A stretch of DNA of 64,000 bases from Candidatus Cloacimonadales bacterium (GCA_963667035.1 OY762964.1:960001-1024000), one strand, 5' to 3'. Counted from the first letter of the stretch, positions 35,887-44,330 are shown. The notes: generated from the letters alone by a model not told the origin. A program made the numbers and translations.

Positions 35887-36450
35887 ATGAAACAGAGATG
35901 CCAATGGTGCGAATCTAATCCCATAAACATAAAATATCATGATGAAGAGTGGGGAACTCCTGTACACGATGATAGATTACTTTTTGAATTCTTGATTTTG
36001 GAAGGTGCTCAAGCAGGACTTAGTTGGACTACAATTCTCAAGAAAAGAGAAAACTACCGTAAAGCATTCGATAATTTCGACTTTAATAAAATAGCTCTCT
36101 ACACAGATGATGATAAAGAGAGATTACTTGCAAATGAAGGGATTGTCAGAAACAGAAGAAAGATTGATTCAACGATTAGGAATGCTGCAGTCGCTATTGA
36201 TATTATCAAAGAATTCGGTTCTCTTGATAAGTATTTCTGGAATTATGTCGATGGAAAGCCAATTATAAACTCCCGGAAATCATTATCGGAAATCCCTGCC
36301 AAAACCGAACTGGCAGAGAAGATGAGCAAGGATCTTAAGAAAAGAGGCATGAACTTTGTAGGTCCCACGATTTGCTATGCCTTTATGCAGGCGATAGGAA
36401 TAGTAAATGACCACACTGTAGATTGTTATAGATATAAGGAATTGAGCTAA
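35887..36450 (+). CDS. tag: DNA-3-methyladenine glycosylase I
   Basis: RCQW, YHDEEWG, LEGAQAGLSW, FVGPT, NDH...C. Confidence 0.95.
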   Translation: MKQRCQWCESNPINIKYHDEEWGTPVHDDRLLFEFLILEGAQAGLSWTTILKKRENYRKAFDNFDFNKIALYTDDDKERLLANEGIVRNRRKIDSTIRNAAVAIDIIKEFGSLDKYFWNYVDGKPIINSRKSLSEIPAKTELAEKMSKDLKKRGMNFVGPTICYAFMQAIGIVNDHTVDCYRYKELS

Positions 36451-36559
36451 GGCATTTCTTCTTAACATAATTATGTAATTTATCCGGATAGTTGTGTTAT
36501 TTTATGCAGGGAATACTAAGTTAATTTGTATATAATGTAGAAACAGGTATGGAGGAATT

Positions 36560-37024
36560 ATGAAAAGAATTCTATTGTCACTTATGGGTTTGATATTGTT
36601 GTTTTCATTAACAGCAACGGAACCGACTTTGACAACTCCGGCTCCCAAGGATAAGAAGACACCTCGTGAACCTAAAGCTTTGGAAGCTCCTGAGGTCTCG
36701 AAAGCTGTGCTTGATAGAACTGATAATCAGATGAAGGTCTATACTGAAGAGTTAGATCTGACACCAGAGCAAGTTACAGTAATCAGAGAGATTATTCTTG
36801 AAAGAAACCGCATTATCCAACAGCATAAAAACGTTGGAAATGATGATTTTGAGAAGAACAGAATAGCCCGAAGTAAAATCAGTACTGCTAACCGGAAAGC
36901 CGATGAGAGAATTATCAAGCATTTGAATGAAGAGCAGGTGGTTAAATTTAAACATCTACAGAAACGTACATTGGAGAATAGAAAGAAACCGATGAAAAGT
37001 CAAAAAAAACCTTCAAAATTCTAA
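36560..37024 (+). CDS. Secreted helical protein (Spy/CpxP-like repeats), function unknown
   Basis: Signal peptide; LDLTPEQ and LNEEQ motifs; basic and helical. Confidence 0.6.
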   Translation: MKRILLSLMGLILLFSLTATEPTLTTPAPKDKKTPREPKALEAPEVSKAVLDRTDNQMKVYTEELDLTPEQVTVIREIILERNRIIQQHKNVGNDDFEKNRIARSKISTANRKADERIIKHLNEEQVVKFKHLQKRTLENRKKPMKSQKKPSKF

Positions 37025-37078
37025 AGTAGGTTTGAATTGACTTAAACTAAGTTCATCAGGAAATCCAATATAAATCTC

Positions 37079-37124
37079 AAAGCAGAAAGCGATGTTTATT
37101 AAAACAAGCTTTCTGCTTTCTTTT
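37079..37124 (+). terminator. Terminator after the secreted-protein gene
   Basis: AAAGCAGAAAGC ... GCTTTCTGCTTT followed by a T-run. Confidence 0.7.
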
Positions 37125-37262
37125 GTTAATATAGTTTATACAGTTCCGGGGACTATATGATTTGATCTCAAATCCATAGCAATATGAATCTACAGTGGCA
37201 TTTATCAGTGTCTAGATGATTTCAGTTCATTTACTGTCCTCCTTTTCTGCTTATTCTACCAA

Positions 37263-37356
37263 CCCGCTGTTTTTGCACTGTGCAGGCAGTGCTATCGCAC
37301 TGCCCACGCACTGAAACACCGGGTTGACAGTGCATTCACAGTGCAAAAACAGTGGG
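37263..37356. repeat. 11-bp-periodic palindromic intergenic array B (core GCACTG/CAGTGC)
   Basis: Units at 37264, 37275, 37286, 37297, 37308; inverted units at 37328, 37339, 37350. Outer 20-bp arms match 19/20. Confidence 0.8.
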
Positions 37357-37540
37357 AAACATCCGCTTTGTTGAAGAGTTTACAGAATGTTTGATGTTTG
37401 AAAAAAGAAATTGTAAATTTTATGGGAATTCAGGATATGGAAATATATAAAAAACTATTTTGTCTAATTAATCATTGAGAAAAAAGTGATTGACATAAAC
37501 AATCCGTTAATACTAACTATCAATCAAAATGGAGGATTTT

Positions 37541-37792
37541 ATGGCAAGGGAAACTAAAGTATACAAGTTTAAATGTCCTGATTGTGACCACGAAATAGAA
37601 TTCAAGATAGAGATTAAAACTTCCTCGGAGGGTAAAACTACTAAAGAAGTAGTTGTGTATTGCCCTTTTTGTGATAAAAAATATGTAGCAGAGATACCTG
37701 CGAAACCGGCTAGTAATGCAACTGTTTTAAGATCATATGAAAATGGAGATAAGGATGAAATGGGTCAAGATACCTCTGATTTTAGAATCTGA
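37541..37792 (+). CDS. Small zinc-ribbon protein (CPDC...CPFC)
   Basis: Strong RBS GGAGGA before ATG 37541, two CxxC motifs, overlaps the start of the next gene. Confidence 0.75.
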   Translation: MARETKVYKFKCPDCDHEIEFKIEIKTSSEGKTTKEVVVYCPFCDKKYVAEIPAKPASNATVLRSYENGDKDEMGQDTSDFRI

Positions 37793-40700
37793 ACAGGAGA
37801 CGGAATTAGAAAAGCTTTGGGATAATATTGTTCGGTATCATTCCAATTCACTAACAATTGAGCCGAAGAATACATCTATTGAAAGAATGTTTACGATTAT
37901 GAGCGAAGTAGCAAAAGCTAATCCACAAATTCAAGTTGCTATTAATCAATCGGAGAACGGGAGTGAGCATATAGTTCTAAACTTACAGCATGATAACAGA
38001 ACTATTCTTAACCTTCCGTGGCATGGATTAAAGGATTGCACCGGAAAATCACTTTCATCACTAAGTCAACTTACCTGTGTACGCTCATTTCCAGAATGCT
38101 TTAGTGACCTGAAATTTAAACCTCGAGCACTACCTATGAAGGTTCTTGTTGTAGTATCGTCACCGGATGATTTGACATTTGAAGGTAGATTGGATTATGA
38201 AACTGAGATGAGTAATATACTCACCATTTTCTATCCCTTGATGAAAAGGGGGGAGATAATAGTTGATATCGCAGATGATGCTTCTCTAATAGGAATCGAA
38301 AAGAAAATAATTCAAGTTAAATACGATATACTTCATTTCTCCGGTCATGGTTCATTCAACAAAGATACAGGAGAGGGTCATATTCTGTTGGAAAATGAAG
38401 ATGATATGAATATGAATTTTGTAAACGCAAAGGAGTTTGCTGAAGTCTTGAATAGTCATCCTGAGCATAGGATACCTCTCGTTGTAATGTCCTCATGCCA
38501 TACTGCTCATAGTGACAGTAGTTTTAAAGGTGTTACCGATCAACTGATACGTGTTGGCACTCCTGCCGTTATCTCTATGGTTATGTCTGTCGGTGATGAT
38601 TACGCAACTGAGTTCTCTAACAAGTTTTACGAGAATATCTGTAACAGATATACGATCCCACAGAGCTATCGAAAAGCTGTTGAAGCACTAAGAGTCTACG
38701 AATATGATAGGCATAGTGCAAAAAAAACATCTCACATACCTACTCAATGGATGATTCCCAGTCTGACAGTATCAGAAGAGATTGAAAAGCTCACAGATTT
38801 TGATTTGGTTAATGAGATAAGAGATTATGAATCTCAAGATGTATTTTCAGGAAAGAGATATATAAGTAAGCCTGATAAAGAATACTTGTTTATTGGCAGA
38901 TGGAGAGATGTAAAAAGATACTTTGGAGAGCTTAAATCAAAGGGATTTGTACTGATAACGGGACAGGGTGGAATAGGTAAAACTTATCTGGCAGAAGAAC
39001 TTATCCGAAGATATTGTTTGAAACAACTTGAGGCAATTGTATTTGCCTTTGATGAGAAGAATTTGAGTGGTGTTAATATATTGGATAAAGGTATATCCTA
39101 TCTGAAGGATGATGGAGATTTTGATTTTCTAAAGACCTATAAAGATGTGAAGTCTATTGAAGATAAGTTTTTGTTTCTTTTTAACCTGATTGCTAAACAG
39201 GGAAAGTATCCGATTTTTGTTTTTGATAACTTAGAGTCTTTTATGGATGATGATTGCCGAACCTTTAAACCGGAGCATAGCGAAATAGTAAATCTAATCA
39301 CTTTATTACAAAGAATTGAAAAATTTCCTCTTATCATGACTTCCCGATATGCTTTTGAAACGGAATATTATGACATAAATCAGCATGTGGATTTAAAATC
39401 GGTTTCTTTTACCGATTATTGGAGGAAAGCAAAAGATACGAAAAACATTATCTCAGAACTTGGAGACACAAGAGAGGATTTCAAAGATAATCTGTTTTTG
39501 TTATACAATAAACTGGGAGGGAACTATAGAGCACTAGAATTTATTGATACTTTGCTATCTACTGTTAAGTCTGACGACTTAATGAAAGCAATTGAATCCG
39601 TTCAAGATAAAATGGTTGAGAATCTGTTGTTTAATAAGATAATTGAATTATTGGATGATAGTTTGTATATATTCCGGTTTCTTATGCACTTTGATGTGCC
39701 TGTTACTACATTAGCTTTGGAGTTACAAGGATTAGTAAAAGAGAAGATTGAAACTGCTCTCAAACGAATTAATTCATTAACTCTTTGCGAAAGAATGAAA
39801 CAAGATGAAACGGATTTATATTACATCACTCCGCTTATAAAAGACTTATACAAAAAGAACTACCTTAACGAAGATATTATTTTTTCTCATGAAATGGCAG
39901 GGAGATATTTTACTTATAGAATCAACAATGGTTTTGATTCAGGAATGACGAGTCTGATAAATGCTTTTGAACATTTTTGCCTTTCCGATAATAAAAAGCA
40001 AATCAATGATTTAGGGAATAGAATAAGCTTCATTTTTGAGGAAAAATTCATGTTTGAGATGGCTCATTATTATGCTGATAAAAGTTATAGTATACTTGGT
40101 GATGAATGCAATGTCTATTTAATCCATAGATTAGGCTTTATTGAACTAAACATTGGGAGATATGATAATGCTTTAACTCATTTCAATAAGTGCTTGAAGA
40201 TATTTGAGGAAATAGGCGATAAATCTGGAGAAGGAACTTGTCTCAACAATATAGGTCAGATTTACGCTTCACGAGGAGATTATGATACAGCTTTATCTTA
40301 TCTCGAGCATAGTTTGAAGATAAGACAAGAGATAGGCGATAAATCGGGAGAAGGACAATGTCTTAACAATATAAGCCAGATTTACGCTTCACGAGGAGAT
40401 TATGATACAGCTTTATCTTATCTCGAGCATAGTTTGAAGATAAGACAAGAGATAGGCGATAAATCGGGAGAAGGACAATGTCTCAACAATATAAGCCAGA
40501 TTTACGATTCACGAGGAGATTATGATACAGCTTTATCTTATCTCGAGCGTAGTTTGAAGATAAGACAAGATATAGGCGATAAATCTGGAGAAGGAACTTG
40601 TCTCAACAATATAAGCCAGATTTACGATTCACGAGGAGATTATGATACAGCTTTATCTTATCTCGAGCGTAGTTTGAAGATAAGACAAGATATAGGCGAT

Positions 40701-41015
40701 AAATCCGGAGAAGGACAATGTCTCAACAATATAAGCCAGATTTACGCTTCACGAAGAGATTATGATACCGCTTTATCTTATCTTGAGCGTAGTTTGAAGA
40801 TATTTGAGGAGATAGGAGATAAATCGGGTGAAGGATACACATTATACAATTTAGCTTTTATGCTACTAATCAATTTGAATGAACCAGAAAAGGGAATGAA
40901 ATGCTTAATTGAAGCACTTAAAATCAATCAAAAAGTTGGAGATGCCGAGTTGGGAAAGCATTTATCGGAATTGTTTACATGGAAGAAACAGCAAATGGAG
41001 GAACAAGATGCCTGA
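37755..41015 (+). CDS. CHAT (caspase-like) protease - STAND/NB-ARC NTPase - TPR repeat protein
   Basis: LPW, VLVVVSSP, catalytic His in LHFSGHG and Cys in VMSSC; Walker A GQGGIGKT, Walker B FVFDNLE, MTSR; 40-aa TPR repeats. The start could be 37737, 37743 or 37755. Confidence 0.88.
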   Translation: MKWVKIPLILESEQETELEKLWDNIVRYHSNSLTIEPKNTSIERMFTIMSEVAKANPQIQVAINQSENGSEHIVLNLQHDNRTILNLPWHGLKDCTGKSLSSLSQLTCVRSFPECFSDLKFKPRALPMKVLVVVSSPDDLTFEGRLDYETEMSNILTIFYPLMKRGEIIVDIADDASLIGIEKKIIQVKYDILHFSGHGSFNKDTGEGHILLENEDDMNMNFVNAKEFAEVLNSHPEHRIPLVVMSSCHTAHSDSSFKGVTDQLIRVGTPAVISMVMSVGDDYATEFSNKFYENICNRYTIPQSYRKAVEALRVYEYDRHSAKKTSHIPTQWMIPSLTVSEEIEKLTDFDLVNEIRDYESQDVFSGKRYISKPDKEYLFIGRWRDVKRYFGELKSKGFVLITGQGGIGKTYLAEELIRRYCLKQLEAIVFAFDEKNLSGVNILDKGISYLKDDGDFDFLKTYKDVKSIEDKFLFLFNLIAKQGKYPIFVFDNLESFMDDDCRTFKPEHSEIVNLITLLQRIEKFPLIMTSRYAFETEYYDINQHVDLKSVSFTDYWRKAKDTKNIISELGDTREDFKDNLFLLYNKLGGNYRALEFIDTLLSTVKSDDLMKAIESVQDKMVENLLFNKIIELLDDSLYIFRFLMHFDVPVTTLALELQGLVKEKIETALKRINSLTLCERMKQDETDLYYITPLIKDLYKKNYLNEDIIFSHEMAGRYFTYRINNGFDSGMTSLINAFEHFCLSDNKKQINDLGNRISFIFEEKFMFEMAHYYADKSYSILGDECNVYLIHRLGFIELNIGRYDNALTHFNKCLKIFEEIGDKSGEGTCLNNIGQIYASRGDYDTALSYLEHSLKIRQEIGDKSGEGQCLNNISQIYASRGDYDTALSYLEHSLKIRQEIGDKSGEGQCLNNISQIYDSRGDYDTALSYLERSLKIRQDIGDKSGEGTCLNNISQIYDSRGDYDTALSYLERSLKIRQDIGDKSGEGQCLNNISQIYASRRDYDTALSYLERSLKIFEEIGDKSGEGYTLYNLAFMLLINLNEPEKGMKCLIEALKINQKVGDAELGKHLSELFTWKKQQMEEQDA
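40194..40838 (+). repeat. About 5.4 near-identical 120-bp tandem repeats encoding 40-aa TPR units
   Basis: Units in register at 40261, 40381, 40501, 40621 and 40741 differ at only a few positions. Confidence 0.95.
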
Positions 41016-41409
41016 TGAATCATTGAAAGTTAAACCAATCTCACAAGAAACAACACAATGGCAAGAGTTCATGATAAAAGAGCAACAGGAAACTCCTCAT
41101 AGGCTTGAAACGGTAGGGAAGTCATTGTCAGGGATGATATCTGTTACATTATCTATTATATTGGTATTTAGTGCAAATATCCTTAAAACTAATACAATTC
41201 CTGTATATGTACTAGTAATTTGGATTATAGCTTTATTTCTATCATTTCTGGTTATATTTCCATTCCCATACAGGTATAACACACAGAGTCCTCAAACATA
41301 TAAAGAAGCTCATAAACGTATAACAGTAGTCAAGTATACGATACTGATATTAAGCGTGATTGCATATCTGATAGCTGTATCATGGCTAGCGATAGAGCTA
41401 TTCGGATAG
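41008..41409 (+). CDS. Small membrane protein (133 aa, about 3 TM), coupled to the CHAT gene
   Basis: RBS GGAGG; ATG 41008 lies just upstream of the CHAT stop (41013-41015); three hydrophobic segments. Confidence 0.75.
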   Translation: MPDESLKVKPISQETTQWQEFMIKEQQETPHRLETVGKSLSGMISVTLSIILVFSANILKTNTIPVYVLVIWIIALFLSFLVIFPFPYRYNTQSPQTYKEAHKRITVVKYTILILSVIAYLIAVSWLAIELFG

Positions 41410-41612
41410 TATAGAAGTCTATTCACAGATGTGAATTGCCTTATTACGTAGTTAATGGTAAAACTTCAAAATACAATAATTCCAATTCATACATAATCAT
41501 TCTTATCTTGACGTATATATTACCTTTCTGAATATCAAACATTATGATGTCATAAAGTTGTATAGTAGTATATAAAGATTATCATATTTAAAATAAAGAG
41601 AATAGAGGAGGT

Positions 41613-44330
41613 ATGATGAAGAAAACCCTGAATCTTTTTTTGTTATTAATCATTAGCGTTTCATCTATGTGGGCTTACATGACCAGATATGAAACGGTCC
41701 TGACTCAACCTGACGGTAGTAAGTTTAGTGCTGTTATTGAAGGTGACGAATACTTTCGAGTTGTGTCGGATAAGGATAACTATACCCTGATGGTAGACCC
41801 TAAGACAGGATACTGGATGTATGCGGTTAAAGGAAACAACGGTTTAGAACCGGGAATGTACAGACAGGGAACTGTCAATCCTGCGTCAATAGGCTTGGAC
41901 CCCGGATTAACATATTCTTCCGGCCAGATTAATAAAAGAGTGGAGGAGATGAAAGAGTTATTCTCCGCTAATAGCATAAATAGAACTCCCAATACGGGAA
42001 CATTCAATAACCTTGTTGTGTTTATTCGTTTCGCAGGTGAGAGTGAATTCGGACAGAACATTAGTACTTATACAAATATGATTAGCGATACAACACCCGG
42101 AGCTAACTCCATGGTGAACTACTTTGAAGAAGTGTCCTATAATCAATTAACCATAGACTCTCATTACTATCCACCGACATCAAACAACATGGTTGTTTCT
42201 TATCAGGATAGCTATGCAAGAAACTACTTTCAACCGTACAGTGGTTCTAATCCAAGCGGATACAGCGGAGATGACGAGAGAAAAGATAGAGAATTTGCTT
42301 TATTGGATAGAGCAATAGACTATGTAGATGCCTATATCCCTTCATCATTGAATATTGATGCTGATAATGACGGTTATGTTGATAATGTAGTATTCATAGT
42401 GAAAGGTGATACCGACGGTTGGTCTGATTTACTATGGCCTCATCGTTGGGTTCTTTATGATAGAAACGTGTATCTGAACGGTGATAGAGTTTGGGATTTC
42501 AATTTCCAGTTGCAATCGCATCTTGTCAGTAGCGGAACAGGCGTTATGTGTCATGAAATGTTCCATTCATTAGGTGCACCCGATTTATATCATTATAACT
42601 ATGACGGTTTGACGACTGCCGGAGAATGGGATGTTATGGAGAATTCTACCAATCCTCCTCAACACATGCTAATGTACATGAAATACAGATATGGATTGTG
42701 GCTAAACAGTATACCTGAGATAACTTCAAGCGGGACATACTCGTTAAACCCGACAACTAACAATACAAACAATTGCTATAAAATAGCTTCGAATGATCCT
42801 GACGAGTACTTTGTTATTGAGTATAGAAGAATGACCGGAACCTTTGAATCAAGTCTACCCGGAGAAGGGTTAATAGCTTATAGAATAAACACGACTCTTG
42901 ATGGAGAAGGAAATGCAGACGGACCACCGGACGAGCTTTATGTGTATAGACCGGGAGGTAGCCTCACTCAAAGCGGTAGCATTAGTCAGGCAGTATTTAA
43001 TCCTGCTTACGGAAGAACCGAGTTAACAGATTATACAGACCCTAATGGATTTCTTTCCGATGGTTCATTAGGTGGGCTGTTCGTTACGAATATCGGTACT
43101 GCAGGAACAACAATCTCTTTTACAGTTAATATTGGAGGTGCAGGTGATCCTGATATTGCTGTGACTCCTTCATCTTATTCGATTAGCTTACCCCCTGAGA
43201 CAACAGCAAACAGAAGTTTGAGAATAAGTAACAATGGCACAGCTCCTTTAAACTATTCCCTTAACTTACAGAATGTAACAAGAGATACAGGTGGTCCCAC
43301 TGCAAGCGGATACTATTGGATTGATAGTTCTGAAGCAAATGGTCCTGATTATATATGGGAAGATATCTCTTCTGTTGGAACCGAGATTAATTATAACTCT
43401 GATGATCAGCTATCCGCTTCGCTTAACCTAGGTTTCACATTCCCGTTTTACGATAACAACTATACTTCTCTTGCCGTATGTAGTAATGGTTTCTTGAGTT
43501 TTTCAGGTTCGGATACGCAATGGGATAATATGGATATTCCCAATAGTATTACACCAAACAACTTCATTGCACCTTTCTGGGATGATTTAAGTCCTCAAAA
43601 CAGTGGCTCCGTTTACTATTACAGCGATGTGGCTAATCAACGCTTTATTGTGCAATTCACTGATGCACCTCACTATAGTACTGTTAGCGGTACTTATACT
43701 TTCCAAGTTCAGTTGTATTCTACCGGTGAGATATACTATTATTACAATAATATGCGAAATACTATAAATAGTGCTACAATAGGTATTGAGAACAATGACG
43801 GTTCGGAAGGATTAAAAATAGCTTATAATGAGAACTATGTTTCTAACGGTAAAGCAGTATTAATAAACAATGTTAACTTTATACAGGATGATGTTGATTG
43901 GGCGGATGCAACACCTATGAACGGAACGGTTAATCCTGGTGCTTATACCGACGTTGCTTTAAATATTGATACAACAGGATTGATTGCGAATAATGATTAT
44001 ACAGCTAATGTAGTTGTTAATTCCAATGATAATGACCTGCCGTCTATCAGTATCCCATTATATTTATCGGTAATCGGGGCACTTGATGCTCCTGAAAATG
44101 CTACTGCTTCTGTAGTTAACGGAAGATTAGAGATAAAGTGGACTCCTGTAACGGGTGCAAGTTCTTATAATATCTATATGCAGAATCCAAGTAACGGGAT
44201 TTACTATAATAGAAACAGTTACGGGACATTCGGCACATCCGGAAGTTATATTACTTGGACAACTACTTTTGAATTGGATAGTTTATCATGGCCAAGAGCT
44301 TTCTTTTATATTAAAGCTGTTGCAGAATAA
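41613..44330 (+). CDS. Secreted M6-family (immune inhibitor A-like) metalloprotease with C-terminal beta domains
   Basis: Signal peptide, QPDGS..GDE propeptide, HEMFHSLGAPDLY zinc motif, WDVM Met-turn, EYFVIEYR, IAPFWDDL. Confidence 0.88.
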   Translation: MMKKTLNLFLLLIISVSSMWAYMTRYETVLTQPDGSKFSAVIEGDEYFRVVSDKDNYTLMVDPKTGYWMYAVKGNNGLEPGMYRQGTVNPASIGLDPGLTYSSGQINKRVEEMKELFSANSINRTPNTGTFNNLVVFIRFAGESEFGQNISTYTNMISDTTPGANSMVNYFEEVSYNQLTIDSHYYPPTSNNMVVSYQDSYARNYFQPYSGSNPSGYSGDDERKDREFALLDRAIDYVDAYIPSSLNIDADNDGYVDNVVFIVKGDTDGWSDLLWPHRWVLYDRNVYLNGDRVWDFNFQLQSHLVSSGTGVMCHEMFHSLGAPDLYHYNYDGLTTAGEWDVMENSTNPPQHMLMYMKYRYGLWLNSIPEITSSGTYSLNPTTNNTNNCYKIASNDPDEYFVIEYRRMTGTFESSLPGEGLIAYRINTTLDGEGNADGPPDELYVYRPGGSLTQSGSISQAVFNPAYGRTELTDYTDPNGFLSDGSLGGLFVTNIGTAGTTISFTVNIGGAGDPDIAVTPSSYSISLPPETTANRSLRISNNGTAPLNYSLNLQNVTRDTGGPTASGYYWIDSSEANGPDYIWEDISSVGTEINYNSDDQLSASLNLGFTFPFYDNNYTSLAVCSNGFLSFSGSDTQWDNMDIPNSITPNNFIAPFWDDLSPQNSGSVYYYSDVANQRFIVQFTDAPHYSTVSGTYTFQVQLYSTGEIYYYYNNMRNTINSATIGIENNDGSEGLKIAYNENYVSNGKAVLINNVNFIQDDVDWADATPMNGTVNPGAYTDVALNIDTTGLIANNDYTANVVVNSNDNDLPSISIPLYLSVIGALDAPENATASVVNGRLEIKWTPVTGASSYNIYMQNPSNGIYYNRNSYGTFGTSGSYITWTTTFELDSLSWPRAFFYIKAVAE

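What the first reader, a model, noticed from the sequence alone, without database searches (positions are those of the whole stretch)
37541..41409. Coupled zinc-ribbon / CHAT-STAND-TPR / membrane-protein module: candidate caspase-based immune or cell-death system
Seen: three overlapping, translationally coupled genes between a terminator plus repeat array and an unrelated protease gene. They encode an 83-aa protein with two CxxC motifs, a ~1090-aa protein with an intact CHAT His/Cys dyad, Walker A/B and TPRs, and a 133-aa protein with about 3 TMs. Established: effector-STAND-repeat is the NLR-like layout of bacterial Avs/NACHT defence proteins, and CHAT proteases cleave neighbouring gene products in bacterial gasdermin loci and in Csx29/Csx30. 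Inference: TPR sensing oligomerises the NTPase and activates the protease, which cleaves the zinc-ribbon protein or the soluble N-terminus of the membrane protein to release a membrane-disrupting effector. I do not recognise this trio as a named system.
Basis: partly seen in the sequence, partly recalled or inferred. Interest (0 to 1): 0.85.

Follow-up and report, generated by a model that had tools for sequence, protein, structure and literature searches.

The report
Caspase-like sensor with two small partners
Three overlapping genes encode a caspase-like sensor-protease, a small zinc-binding protein and a small three-pass membrane protein that travel together in several bacterial phyla, most likely as an undescribed immune or cell-suicide module whose mechanism is untested.

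Summary
An 83-aa zinc ribbon (ZR), a 1086-aa CHAT-STAND-TPR protein and a 133-aa three-helix membrane protein (TM) overlap on one strand.

- Of 62 loci holding a CHAT-STAND homologue, 33 have both flanks. Of these, 30 have ZR and 27 have TM, always on the same strand.
- Starting instead from TM in metagenomes (50 loci), 34 hold ZR and 22 hold CHAT-STAND.
- Four gene orders occur.
- No fourth conserved gene was found.

In this genome the trio is a ~4.2-kb indel relative to a same-genus genome. TM was found in 1 of 232 genomes sampled from the phylum, the window's own.

Neither small protein matches a Pfam, NCBIfam or PADLOC family.

The best reading is an NLR-like, caspase-family conflict module with TM as membrane effector and ZR as its cytoplasmic partner or substrate. 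Cleavage, toxicity and phage defence are inferred, not shown. I rate it a new variant of a known kind, of moderately high interest.

The parts
37541..37792 (+). ZR gene: 83-aa soluble zinc-ribbon protein with a disordered C-terminal tail that carries a conserved basic residue (R64).
   Evidence: ORF and translation. Three Cys are invariant in 41 aligned family members (C12, C41, C44). The AF2 model shows four beta strands, a tail of low confidence (pLDDT under 50 at residues 67-77) and mean pLDDT 65. The column of R64 is R or K in 78 of 81 distinct sequences. No Pfam or NCBIfam match is above cut-off.
37755..41015 (+). CHAT-STAND-TPR gene: 1086-aa soluble NLR-like caspase-family protease.
   Evidence: Pfam CHAT, nSTAND3 and TPR_12 matches. 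The start is taken from the 1086-aa record and the homologue N-termini. There is no hydrophobic segment (maximum KD19 1.3).
37950..38693 (+). CHAT protease domain, with catalytic His at 38346-38348 and Cys at 38496-38498.
   Evidence: Pfam CHAT covers residues 72-319 of the 1092-aa form. His and Cys are invariant in 9 of 9 homologues.
38925..39347 (+). STAND NTPase core, with Walker A at 38961-38984 and the Walker-B Asp at 39225-39227.
   Evidence: Pfam nSTAND3 covers residues 397-537 at 30.0 bits (cut-off 27.2). GxGGxGKT and the Asp are invariant.
40110..40952 (+). TPR sensor region, including a 120-nt tandem array of 5.2 copies at 93% identity (40212-40835).
   Evidence: Pfam TPR families, Tandem Repeats Finder and the 40-aa units printed in register.
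41008..41409 (+). TM gene: 133-aa three-pass membrane protein. The N-terminal 41 residues and the 24-residue TM2-TM3 loop are predicted to be cytoplasmic.
   Evidence: Translation. Three hydrophobic segments, and a loop 87-110 with 5 K/R against 1 D/E. AF2 helices 13-55, 64-83 and 95-132. W18, R32, E34, K38, P85 and K109 are conserved in 75 to 77 of 78 sequences.
37395..41560 (+). Approximate extent of the ~4.2-kb segment present here and absent from the same-genus genome G001. It holds the trio, about 145 nt upstream and about 150 nt downstream.
   Evidence: blastn against L118 and the three-way junction alignment. The borders are good to about 20 nt, and I saw no direct repeats at the junctions.

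Best explanation
The three genes form one horizontally mobile module of the NLR-like (STAND) conflict-system kind.

Proposed mechanism:
1. The large cytoplasmic protein senses a trigger through its TPR array.
2. It oligomerises through its NTPase domain, which switches on its N-terminal CHAT (caspase-family, His/Cys) protease.
3. The protease acts on the ZR/TM pair, and TM is the membrane-acting output (depolarisation or lysis, an abortive-infection-type outcome).
4. ZR is a cytoplasmic partner of TM, either a safety catch or an adaptor. Its C-terminal tail, with a near-invariant Arg/Lys, is a candidate cleavage or docking site. R32 in the cytoplasmic N-terminal helix of TM is a second candidate.

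Shown: the domain identities, the intact catalytic and Walker motifs, three-way linkage across phyla with shuffled gene order, and the accessory, indel-like nature of the locus.

Inferred: the sensing, the oligomerisation, the proteolysis of ZR or TM, the membrane damage and the anti-phage role.
For: Domains:
- CHAT, nSTAND3 and TPR match above Pfam cut-offs.
- The His/Cys dyad and the Walker A and B motifs are invariant in 9 of 9 homologues.

Linkage starting from CHAT-STAND (62 loci from one genome per species):
- ZR is present in 46 of 62 and TM in 30 of 62, all on the same strand.
- Median gaps are 35 nt (ZR) and 67 nt (TM).
- Among the 33 loci with at least 600 nt on both sides, ZR is in 30, TM in 27, neither in 3, ZR only in 3 and TM only in 0.

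Reverse test starting from TM in metagenome contigs (50 loci):
- ZR is in 34 of 50 and CHAT-STAND in 22 of 50.
- Among the 19 loci of at least 6 kb, CHAT-STAND is in 12.

Behaviour as a unit:
- 38 complete trios show four gene orders: ZR-CHAT-TM 27, ZR-TM-CHAT 5, CHAT-ZR-TM 4 and TM-ZR-CHAT 2.
- On the CHAT-STAND tree, ZR-TM-CHAT needs at least 2 origins and CHAT-ZR-TM at least 3.
- Pairwise distances of the three proteins correlate at r 0.68-0.77. None of 2000 permutations reached this, on 36 of the 38 trios.
- No fourth gene family recurs apart from TPR-only ORFs.

CHAT-TM link without STAND:
- A divergent TM branch lies beside a 400-aa stand-alone CHAT protease (Pfam 9.4e-54) in L109 and L108.

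Accessory nature:
- The module is single-copy in its own genome.
- No CHAT-STAND homologue was found in any of 40 relatives.
- TM was found in 1 of 232 sampled genomes of the phylum, the window's own.
- The locus is a ~4.2-kb indel relative to a same-genus genome.
- The nearest CHAT-STAND relative is from a Bacteroidales metagenome-assembled genome (MAG), at 41% identity over 750 columns and with SH-aLRT 99.

Conflict-system flavour:
- 14 of 113 neighbour proteins within 2 kb, in 13 loci, hit PADLOC models at E <= 1e-10. They include PtuA and PtuB (Septu) in L010, a type III restriction enzyme, a type I methyltransferase and PDC-S01, -S02 and -S27.
- A second PtuA-like neighbour occurs in L095.
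- The whole trio is tandemly duplicated in L090.
- The 120-nt TPR units are near-identical.

Topology:
- The conserved soluble parts of TM are on the predicted cytoplasmic side, where the soluble protease and ZR are.

Precedent:
- CHAT proteases fused to TPR or NACHT domains lie beside bacterial gasdermins and cleave them (passages of 10.1101/2021.06.07.447441).
Against: - There is no experimental or expression evidence of any kind.
- The window's own locus lies among housekeeping genes (PFOR, tag, pyrBCKD), not in a defence island.
- The PADLOC neighbour count has no baseline and covers only 113 of 226 near neighbours.
- TM has no significant structural or family match to any known pore-former or effector. 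The best Foldseek hit is NINJ1 at E 0.29. VIA-align gives only generic helical bundles with Z <= 10.3. The PycTM profile comparison has probability 14%.
- ZR-TM pairs exist without CHAT-STAND in cis (L082/L085, L095), so the protease is not always needed nearby.
- Three well-flanked CHAT-STAND loci lack both partners (L016, L020, L067). TM was not found anywhere in 3 of 5 such genomes searched.
- The Mantel correlation is what any co-inherited neighbours would show.
- No TM relative was found on viral contigs. That neither helps nor hurts a defence role.
Confidence: 0.5

Rival explanations
1. ZR-TM is a self-sufficient two-gene module. TM would be a membrane toxin or effector, and ZR its cytoplasmic antitoxin, sensor or gate. 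CHAT-STAND-TPR would be an optional upstream regulator that can act in cis or in trans, for example by destroying ZR. In some genomes several sensor-proteases would then feed one ZR-TM pair.
For: - ZR is adjacent to TM whenever the order departs from ZR-CHAT-TM, in 11 of 38 trios.
- ZR-TM pairs occur without CHAT-STAND despite kilobases of flank in L082/L085 and L095.
- Genome G232 has four CHAT-STAND paralogues (L016, L026, L027, L029) and one TM gene, on another contig.
- TM never occurs without ZR in the 33 well-flanked CHAT-anchored loci.
Against: - In five Bacteroidota genomes, TM and the CHAT-STAND gene are each single-copy and adjacent. One of these genomes has a second, 26%-identical paralogue.
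- G232 is a 10.4-Mb metagenome-assembled genome (MAG) and may be a mixture.
- In L108 and L109, TM pairs with a CHAT protease and no ZR.
- No ZR-TM fusion appears among the top 150 TM-family representatives or among longer proteins searched with the ZR alignment.
Confidence: 0.2
2. The module is a regulatory, non-lethal proteolytic switch in the manner of Craspase or DdvA. TM would be a membrane anchor or a sensor of envelope state. It would recruit or activate the CHAT-STAND protein, and cleavage of ZR would release a signal, for instance a nucleic-acid-binding zinc ribbon.
For: - CHAT/TPR proteases do serve as signalling switches. The abstract of PMC11506125 describes DdvA, a zinc-bound anti-sigma domain, a membrane helix and a periplasmic TPR-CHAT. 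Craspase is recalled from memory.
- Earlier notes from this scan report CHAT proteases paired with zinc-ribbon membrane proteins. Those notes are unchecked.
- ZR gives weak sub-threshold matches to transcription-related zinc ribbons (Brz, Elf1).
Against: - No sigma factor, transcription factor or other fourth gene is conserved nearby.
- The protease is cytoplasmic and carries a STAND NTPase, unlike DdvA or Csx29.
- ZR is a beta ribbon in the AF2 model, not a helical ZAS domain.
- The patchy, indel-like distribution fits a conflict system better than a housekeeping regulator.
Confidence: 0.15
3. The module acts in programmed cell death or kin discrimination in filamentous or aggregating bacteria, not in anti-phage defence.
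For: - Most of the genome-derived loci come from Saprospiraceae and related Bacteroidota.
- NLR-like proteins with small membrane-targeting partners are reported as enriched in multicellular prokaryotes (passages of 10.1101/2020.01.06.895854; abstract of PMC7159879).
Against: - The module also occurs in Aminicenantes, Nitrospirota, Calditrichota, Ignavibacteriota and an anammox metagenome-assembled genome.
- It also occurs in this 3.1-Mb genome, whose sampled phylum otherwise lacks it.
- Neighbours include restriction and Septu genes.
- I did not test the cell habit of the hosts.
Confidence: 0.1

Closest known systems
Bacterial gasdermin operons with CHAT or C14 proteases fused to TPR, LRR, WD40 or NACHT domains (passages of 10.1101/2021.06.07.447441)
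   Same: A caspase-family protease, often with repeat or NACHT modules, is encoded next to a small membrane-acting protein. The logic is the same: a sensor-protease licenses a membrane effector.
   Different: The partner here is a 133-aa three-helix integral membrane protein, not a gasdermin fold. It has no gasdermin Pfam match and no structural match. A third dedicated zinc-ribbon protein is present. No cleavage has been shown.
Avs, bNACHT and other bacterial NLR-like STAND defence proteins (names recalled; the 2026 STAND survey 10.64898/2026.01.04.697583 was read in passages)
   Same: The tripartite effector-NTPase-repeat layout, the patchy distribution and the single large sensor-effector polypeptide.
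   Different: No Avs or NACHT PADLOC model matches at E <= 0.1. The effector domain is CHAT, and there are two conserved small partners. The caspase-bearing bacterial Apaf-1-like proteins in that survey have beta-propeller sensors, not TPRs.
Bell-domain protein / NLR gene pairs of filamentous bacteria (passages of 10.1101/2020.01.06.895854)
   Same: A protein of about 120-140 aa, predicted to act on membranes, is encoded collinear with an NLR-like TPR protein and often overlaps it.
   Different: Bell is modelled as a soluble five-helix bundle with a C-terminal amyloid motif shared with the NLR N-terminus. TM here has three hydrophobic membrane helices. The NLR-like protein carries its own CHAT effector. 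I saw no shared motif by eye and ran no formal test.
DdvA/DdvS of Myxococcus xanthus (abstract of PMC11506125) and type III-E Craspase Csx29/Csx30 (recalled)
   Same: TPR plus CHAT in a proteolytic switch of a defence locus. A zinc-binding element and a membrane element are involved.
   Different: DdvA is one polypeptide with a periplasmic, catalytically incomplete CHAT and a helical zinc-bound anti-sigma domain. In the module studied here the CHAT domain is intact and cytoplasmic and is fused to a STAND NTPase. The zinc ribbon and the membrane protein are separate genes. No sigma factor or CRISPR-Cas genes are linked.
Pycsar PycTM effector (PF18967)
   Same: Similar size and layout: an N-terminal cytoplasmic helix, a TM hairpin ending in Phe-Pro, a cytoplasmic helical linker and a C-terminal TM helix (sequences). 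The protein-atlas feature search placed TM nearest to clusters in which 11% of members carry PycTM (score 0.93).
   Different: The window's TM has no PycTM hit at E <= 1, and only 2 of 28 family members hit it, at a best E of 0.12. The profile-profile probability is 14%. There is no cyclase or cNMP-binding partner.

Membership tests
CHAT peptidase (Pfam PF12770, clan CD caspase-like) | Match to the family model above the curated cut-off | tested here: met
   88.5 bits against a cut-off of 24, E 6.9e-25, residues 72-319.
CHAT peptidase (Pfam PF12770, clan CD caspase-like) | Catalytic His and Cys present | tested here: met
   SGHG and SSCH motifs are present. The His and Cys are invariant in 9 of 9 homologues.
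CHAT peptidase (Pfam PF12770, clan CD caspase-like) | Proteolytic activity | not testable with these tools
   Needs biochemistry.
STAND / NLR-like NTPase | P-loop NTPase of a STAND family, with Walker A and B motifs | tested here: met
   nSTAND3 scores 30.0 bits against a cut-off of 27.2. GQGGIGKT and the FVFD Asp are invariant. The precomputed domain lists show NACHT on 4 of 9 homologues.
STAND / NLR-like NTPase | Tripartite layout: N-terminal effector, central NTPase, C-terminal repeats | tested here: met
   CHAT at 72-319, NTPase at 397-537 and TPR at about 792-1072.
STAND / NLR-like NTPase | Ligand-induced, NTP-dependent oligomerisation | not testable with these tools
   Not addressed.
Known anti-phage system in PADLOC-DB v2 (Avs, CBASS SAVED-CHAT and others) | Significant match of the components to a system's models | tested here: not met
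   The large protein gives only a generic TPR model (1.5e-42) and weak hits: PDC-S39 1.6e-4, mad8 2e-4, SAVED_CHAT 8.6e-4. ZR and TM give nothing better than E 0.018. DefenseFinder was not available.
Bacterial gasdermin system | Partner protein with a gasdermin fold | tested here: not met
   TM is 133 aa and all-helical, with three membrane segments. There is no gasdermin family hit and no gasdermin among the Foldseek rows shown.
Bacterial gasdermin system | Adjacent caspase-like protease that cleaves the partner | tested here: inconclusive
   Adjacency is met. Cleavage was not testable.
Pycsar PycTM effector (PF18967) | Homology to the PycTM domain | tested here: inconclusive
   The window's TM has no hit at E <= 1, and 2 of 28 members hit at E >= 0.12. 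hhalign probability is 14%, E 0.0019, over 62 columns. The atlas lead scored 0.93.
Pycsar PycTM effector (PF18967) | Linked pyrimidine cyclase | tested here: not met
   No further conserved neighbour family was found, and the window's flanks are housekeeping genes.
DdvA-type anti-sigma / Craspase-type switch | Linked sigma factor (and, for Craspase, type III-E cas genes) | tested here: not met
   Neighbours in the window are PFOR, tag and pyr genes. No recurrent fourth family appears across 112 loci.
DdvA-type anti-sigma / Craspase-type switch | Membrane-anchored or exported TPR-CHAT | tested here: not met
   The large protein has no hydrophobic segment (maximum KD19 1.3) and carries a cytoplasmic NTPase.
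Bell / NLR amyloid-signalling pair | Short motif shared between the small protein's C-terminus and the NLR N-terminus | not tested
   I compared the three sequences by eye only and saw no shared motif.

The most novel reading that the evidence does not exclude
The 3-TM family (550 clusters at 50% identity in public data) is a new class of caspase-licensed membrane executioner. It would be a bacterial functional analogue of gasdermin or NINJ1, held in check by a dedicated zinc-ribbon 'safety catch'. Its conserved Arg/Lys tail would be the protease's target. One ZR-TM pair could serve several NLR-like CHAT sensors in trans, as in G232, as well as short stand-alone CHAT proteases, as in L109.
Probability: 0.3. 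Interest if true: 0.8.

Novelty: new variant of a known kind. Interest (0 to 1): 0.62.

Why it matters
Caspase-family proteases coupled to NLR-like sensors are central to cell death in animals and fungi. In bacteria the known outputs are gasdermins, indiscriminate proteolysis or sigma-factor release.

The trio in this window adds two unannotated protein families as dedicated, co-inherited partners of such a protease. It therefore offers a compact three-gene, 4.2-kb test bed for two questions. How does a bacterial NLR-like caspase pick its substrate? And how does a very small helical membrane protein execute, or transmit, the response?

The module spans at least five phyla. It appears to have moved into a lineage that otherwise lacks it, so it is likely to work in heterologous hosts.

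Tried and rejected
- **Complex prediction of ZR with TM** (own alignments): score 0.01 against a mark of 0.32, no verdict, so it says nothing either way.
- **Expression**: no RNA holder is listed for the 4.2-kb segment.
- **Fold of TM**: Foldseek against PDB gave nothing at E <= 0.001. The top hit was NINJ1 at E 0.29 with TM-score 0.40-0.48. VIA-align wide gave only designed or generic helical bundles, with Z <= 10.3. This is below the roughly 13 that the tool's own note gives as common for helical models.
- **PycTM homology**: not supported.
- **ZR fusions**: none were found among proteins of 147-2000 aa (which the tool itself calls weak evidence). None were found in the top 150 TM representatives.
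- **Viral contigs**: 98 pattern matches, none confirmed as a TM relative.
- **Plasmids**: only distant CHAT-domain matches at 24-29% identity, with none covering 80% of the query.
- **Rfam on 36000-42000**: only sub-threshold miRNA-model hits on the palindromic repeat. Rejected as chance.
- **Promoter and terminator scans**: counts do not differ from shuffles (27 against 23.2 +/- 4.8, and 3 against 1.9 +/- 1.7). No promoter claim is made.
- **Left-flank synteny**: the tag orthologue lies about 530 kb from the peptidase orthologue in G001. Only the repeat-to-peptidase interval defines the indel.
- **Archaeal SSU model on the own genome**: not discriminating, since it also matched all 14 control genomes. 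I make no claim about the organism's identity.
- **RAYT-like transposase in L058**: I considered this for the ORF inserted at L058:8977-9645, but Pfam found no family, so the label is dropped.
- **Earlier notes of this scan**: nothing near this place or like the TM sequence.

Full report
**1. The observation**

The + strand carries three overlapping ORFs.

- ZR runs from 37541 to 37792 and encodes 83 aa. A GGAGGA lies 4 nt upstream of the ATG. An alternative ATG at 37529 would give 87 aa.
- The large gene's database form is 1086 aa and starts at 37755. That start aligns with the N-termini of the homologues, so it overlaps ZR by 38 nt.
- TM starts at the ATG at 41008, which is 8 nt inside the large gene, and ends at 41409 (133 aa).

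Pfam places three domains on the large protein:
- CHAT at residues 72-319 (88.5 bits, cut-off 24);
- nSTAND3 at residues 397-537 (30.0 bits, cut-off 27.2);
- TPR families over roughly residues 792-1072.

In an alignment of 9 of the 10 proteins (the 24%-coverage hit P0013 was left out), the catalytic His and Cys, GxGGxGKT and the Walker-B Asp are invariant. The TPR region holds 5.2 copies of a 120-nt unit at 93% identity.

TM has three hydrophobic segments. The large protein and ZR have none. So the description is correct.

Two side statements need adjusting:
- The 'repeat array' at 37255-37390 is one copy of a dispersed palindromic element with 54 matches in this genome.
- The downstream 905-aa gene has only a borderline Peptidase_M6 match.

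**2. Is it a unit?**

I first tested linkage starting from the large protein.

A word-indexed search with residues 1-780 found nine homologues at 29-34% identity. Their alignment seeded a scan of one genome per species, which returned 62 loci. These come from Bacteroidota (mostly Saprospiraceae and kin), Aminicenantes, Nitrospirota, Calditrichota, Ignavibacteriota and an anammox planctomycete.

HMMs built from the first phmmer hits gave these results:
- ZR was found in 46 of 62 loci and TM in 30 of 62.
- Every hit was on the strand of the CHAT gene, at median distances of 35 and 67 nt.
- Many contigs end inside or right after the large gene. Restricting to the 33 loci with at least 600 nt on both sides gives ZR in 30, TM in 27, neither in 3 (L016, L020, L067), ZR only in 3 (L014, L042, L061) and TM only in none.

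I then turned the test round. The TM alignment held 28 sequences: 27 of the 30 TM hits plus the window's own, with three dropped for doubtful starts. A scan of metagenome contigs with it gave 50 loci.
- ZR is present in 34 and CHAT-STAND in 22.
- Among the 19 loci of at least 6 kb, CHAT-STAND is present in 12.

Further signs that the three genes behave as a unit:
- 38 complete trios show four gene orders: ZR-CHAT-TM 27, ZR-TM-CHAT 5, CHAT-ZR-TM 4 and TM-ZR-CHAT 2. Each minority order arose more than once on the CHAT-STAND tree.
- Distances among the three proteins are correlated (r 0.68-0.77). None of 2000 permutations reached this, using 36 of the 38 trios. Co-inheritance alone would give this result, so it shows that the genes travel together and no more.
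- Clustering of 371 neighbour ORFs found no recurrent fourth family other than TPR-only ORFs.
- Where TM is separated from the large gene, the intervening DNA is an insertion: a PIN-domain gene in L065, a TPR gene plus a 139-aa ORF in L052, and an ORF without a family in L058.

**3. Variations that bear on mechanism**

- ZR-TM pairs occur without a CHAT-STAND gene nearby in L082/L085 (the same sequence twice) and in L095. L088, L091 and L092 probably belong here too, but their flanks are shorter.
- Genome G232 holds four CHAT-STAND paralogues (L016, L026, L027, L029) and one TM gene on another contig. G235 holds a full trio (L013) plus a ZR-CHAT pair (L014). In G233, G234 and G236, TM was not found. 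These are metagenome-assembled genomes (MAGs) of unknown completeness.
- In five large Bacteroidota genomes, TM and the CHAT-STAND gene are each single and adjacent.
- A divergent TM branch (L108, L109, L111, L112, all from one sample series) lies in L109 and L108 directly downstream of a 400-aa stand-alone CHAT protease (Pfam 9.4e-54) with no ZR.

TM is thus the common element. It pairs with ZR, with CHAT-STAND-TPR and, rarely, with a different CHAT protease.

**4. The small proteins**

Neither small protein reaches any Pfam, NCBIfam or PADLOC threshold.

ZR:
- The alignment held 41 sequences: 40 of the 46 hits plus the window's own.
- It keeps three invariant Cys. The fourth ligand position varies between CxxC, CxC and C...H.
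- AF2 gives a four-stranded ribbon and a tail of low confidence, with mean pLDDT 65.
- Its best-conserved non-Cys position is a basic residue in the tail: R in 63 and K in 15 of 81 sequences. It is preceded by Leu, and in most homologues it lies only a few residues from the C-terminus.

TM:
- AF2 models it with mean pLDDT 83 as three long helices.
- The N-terminal 41 residues and the TM2-TM3 loop are predicted to be cytoplasmic. The loop has 5 K/R against 1 D/E.
- These cytoplasmic parts carry the near-invariant residues W18, R32, E34, K38, P85, Y88, S94 and K109.
- A profile search of 1.84 billion representatives found 550 family members at E <= 0.001. The top 150 have a median length of 141 aa and a maximum of 310 aa, and none carries a ZR domain.
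- Structure searches gave no informative match.
- An atlas lead to the Pycsar PycTM effector did not survive a profile-profile test, which gave a probability of 14%. The two families nevertheless have a similar layout.

**5. The locus in its own genome**

- The trio is single-copy.
- No CHAT-STAND homologue was found in 40 relatives.
- TM was found in 1 of 232 genomes sampled from the phylum, the window's own.
- In the same-genus genome G001, the dispersed repeat lies about 100 nt upstream of the orthologue of the 905-aa peptidase gene (72% identity). In this window, about 4.2 kb (roughly 37395-41560) sits between them.
- The nearest CHAT-STAND relative is from a Bacteroidales MAG, at 41% identity and with SH-aLRT 99.

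Acquisition by horizontal transfer is the simplest reading. Deletion in G001 cannot be excluded from this pair of genomes alone.

**6. What it most likely does**

The architecture is that of NLR-like conflict proteins.

The following features fit a defence or cell-death module:
- the patchy distribution;
- paralogue bursts and tandem duplication (L090, L103);
- internally near-identical TPR units;
- neighbours such as Septu PtuA/PtuB, restriction-modification genes and PADLOC candidate systems. These make up 14 of the 113 neighbour proteins scanned, in 13 loci, with no baseline. A second PtuA-like neighbour occurs in L095.

The gasdermin precedent shows CHAT proteases with TPR or NACHT modules cleaving an adjacent membrane effector (passages).

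I therefore favour this sequence of events:
1. The TPR array senses a trigger.
2. The NTPase drives assembly.
3. The CHAT protease is activated.
4. The protease acts on the ZR/TM pair.
5. TM delivers a membrane-level output.

The basic residue in the ZR tail and R32 of TM are the obvious candidate sites. Clan CD proteases such as separase and the metacaspases cut after Arg or Lys, but I state that from memory and did not test it here. Every step after domain identity is inference.

The rival readings are:
- ZR-TM is an autonomous pair with the protease as an optional regulator;
- the module is a non-lethal proteolytic switch of the DdvA or Craspase kind (abstract of PMC11506125);
- the module has a developmental or kin-recognition role.

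**7. Comparison and novelty**

The module is not a member of any of the following:
- the gasdermin systems, because the partner has the wrong fold;
- Avs or other PADLOC systems, because no model matches;
- Pycsar;
- DdvA or Craspase, because there is no sigma factor or cas gene and the protease is cytoplasmic with a STAND domain;
- the Bell/NLR pairs, whose small partner has a different character (passages).

Literature searches:
- Searches for nSTAND3 with CHAT and for CHAT domain, STAND, zinc ribbon, transmembrane and TPR together found nothing relevant.
- Searches for CHAT, STAND, anti-phage, TPR and transmembrane, for NLR-like with CHAT and for bacterial gasdermin with CHAT, TPR and NACHT found no description of this trio.
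- In the two Aravind-laboratory surveys I read only passages. Zinc ribbons are mentioned there with GTPase systems only.
- Their supplementary neighbourhood tables were not read and could list this context.
- Earlier notes of this scan describe other CHAT modules with zinc-ribbon membrane proteins. Those proteases are exported and lack a STAND domain, and I did not check the notes.

Verdict: this is a real, conserved three-gene module. It is a new variant of the NLR-like caspase theme, with two unannotated dedicated partner families. The mechanism is open.

Noticed in passing
window 37255-37390: An imperfect palindromic element of about 100-135 nt, rich in CACTGTGCA/CAGTGC motifs, is dispersed through the genome, with 54 matches counting both strands. 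A copy also lies upstream of the peptidase orthologue in the same-genus genome. It is a REP/MITE-like repeat of unknown role.
   Followed up: partly
window 41613-44330: This 905-aa protein has a borderline Peptidase_M6 match plus weak NIDO and BACON_2 matches. It belongs to a large paralogous family, with 27 matches in G001 and ORFs of up to 8208 aa in relatives.
   Followed up: partly
L109:26-2461 and L108: A divergent branch of the TM family lies downstream of a 400-aa stand-alone CHAT protease, with no STAND, TPR or ZR. In L109 a 229-aa hydrophobic protein sits between them.
   Followed up: partly
L090 (2107-11627) and L103: L090 carries two complete ZR-CHAT-TM trios in tandem plus a third ZR-TM pair. 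L103 carries two CHAT-STAND genes flanking one ZR-TM pair.
   Followed up: no
G232 (L016, L026, L027, L029, L144): One large Aminicenantes metagenome-assembled genome (MAG) has four CHAT-STAND paralogues without adjacent partners and a single ZR-TM pair on another contig. This may be a many-sensors, one-effector arrangement, or the bin may be a mixture.
   Followed up: partly
L010:2588-4524 and L095:127-2078: Septu-like PtuA/PtuB gene pairs lie directly beside the module in two unrelated loci.
   Followed up: partly
window 40212-40835: The TPR sensor is built from 120-nt units that are 93% identical at the DNA level. Homologues P0006 and P0007 also show near-identical 40-aa units. This suggests ongoing repeat turnover.
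   Followed up: no
P0073, P0155, P0161: A few TM-family members carry an extra C-terminal, presumably extracytoplasmic, domain of about 80-170 aa. P0155 and P0161 share one such domain.
   Followed up: no
L095:3171-4277 and L026:2537-3652: The same ATPase_2 (PF01637) family protein of about 370 aa lies next to a stand-alone ZR-TM pair in L095 and next to a partner-less CHAT-STAND gene in L026.
   Followed up: no
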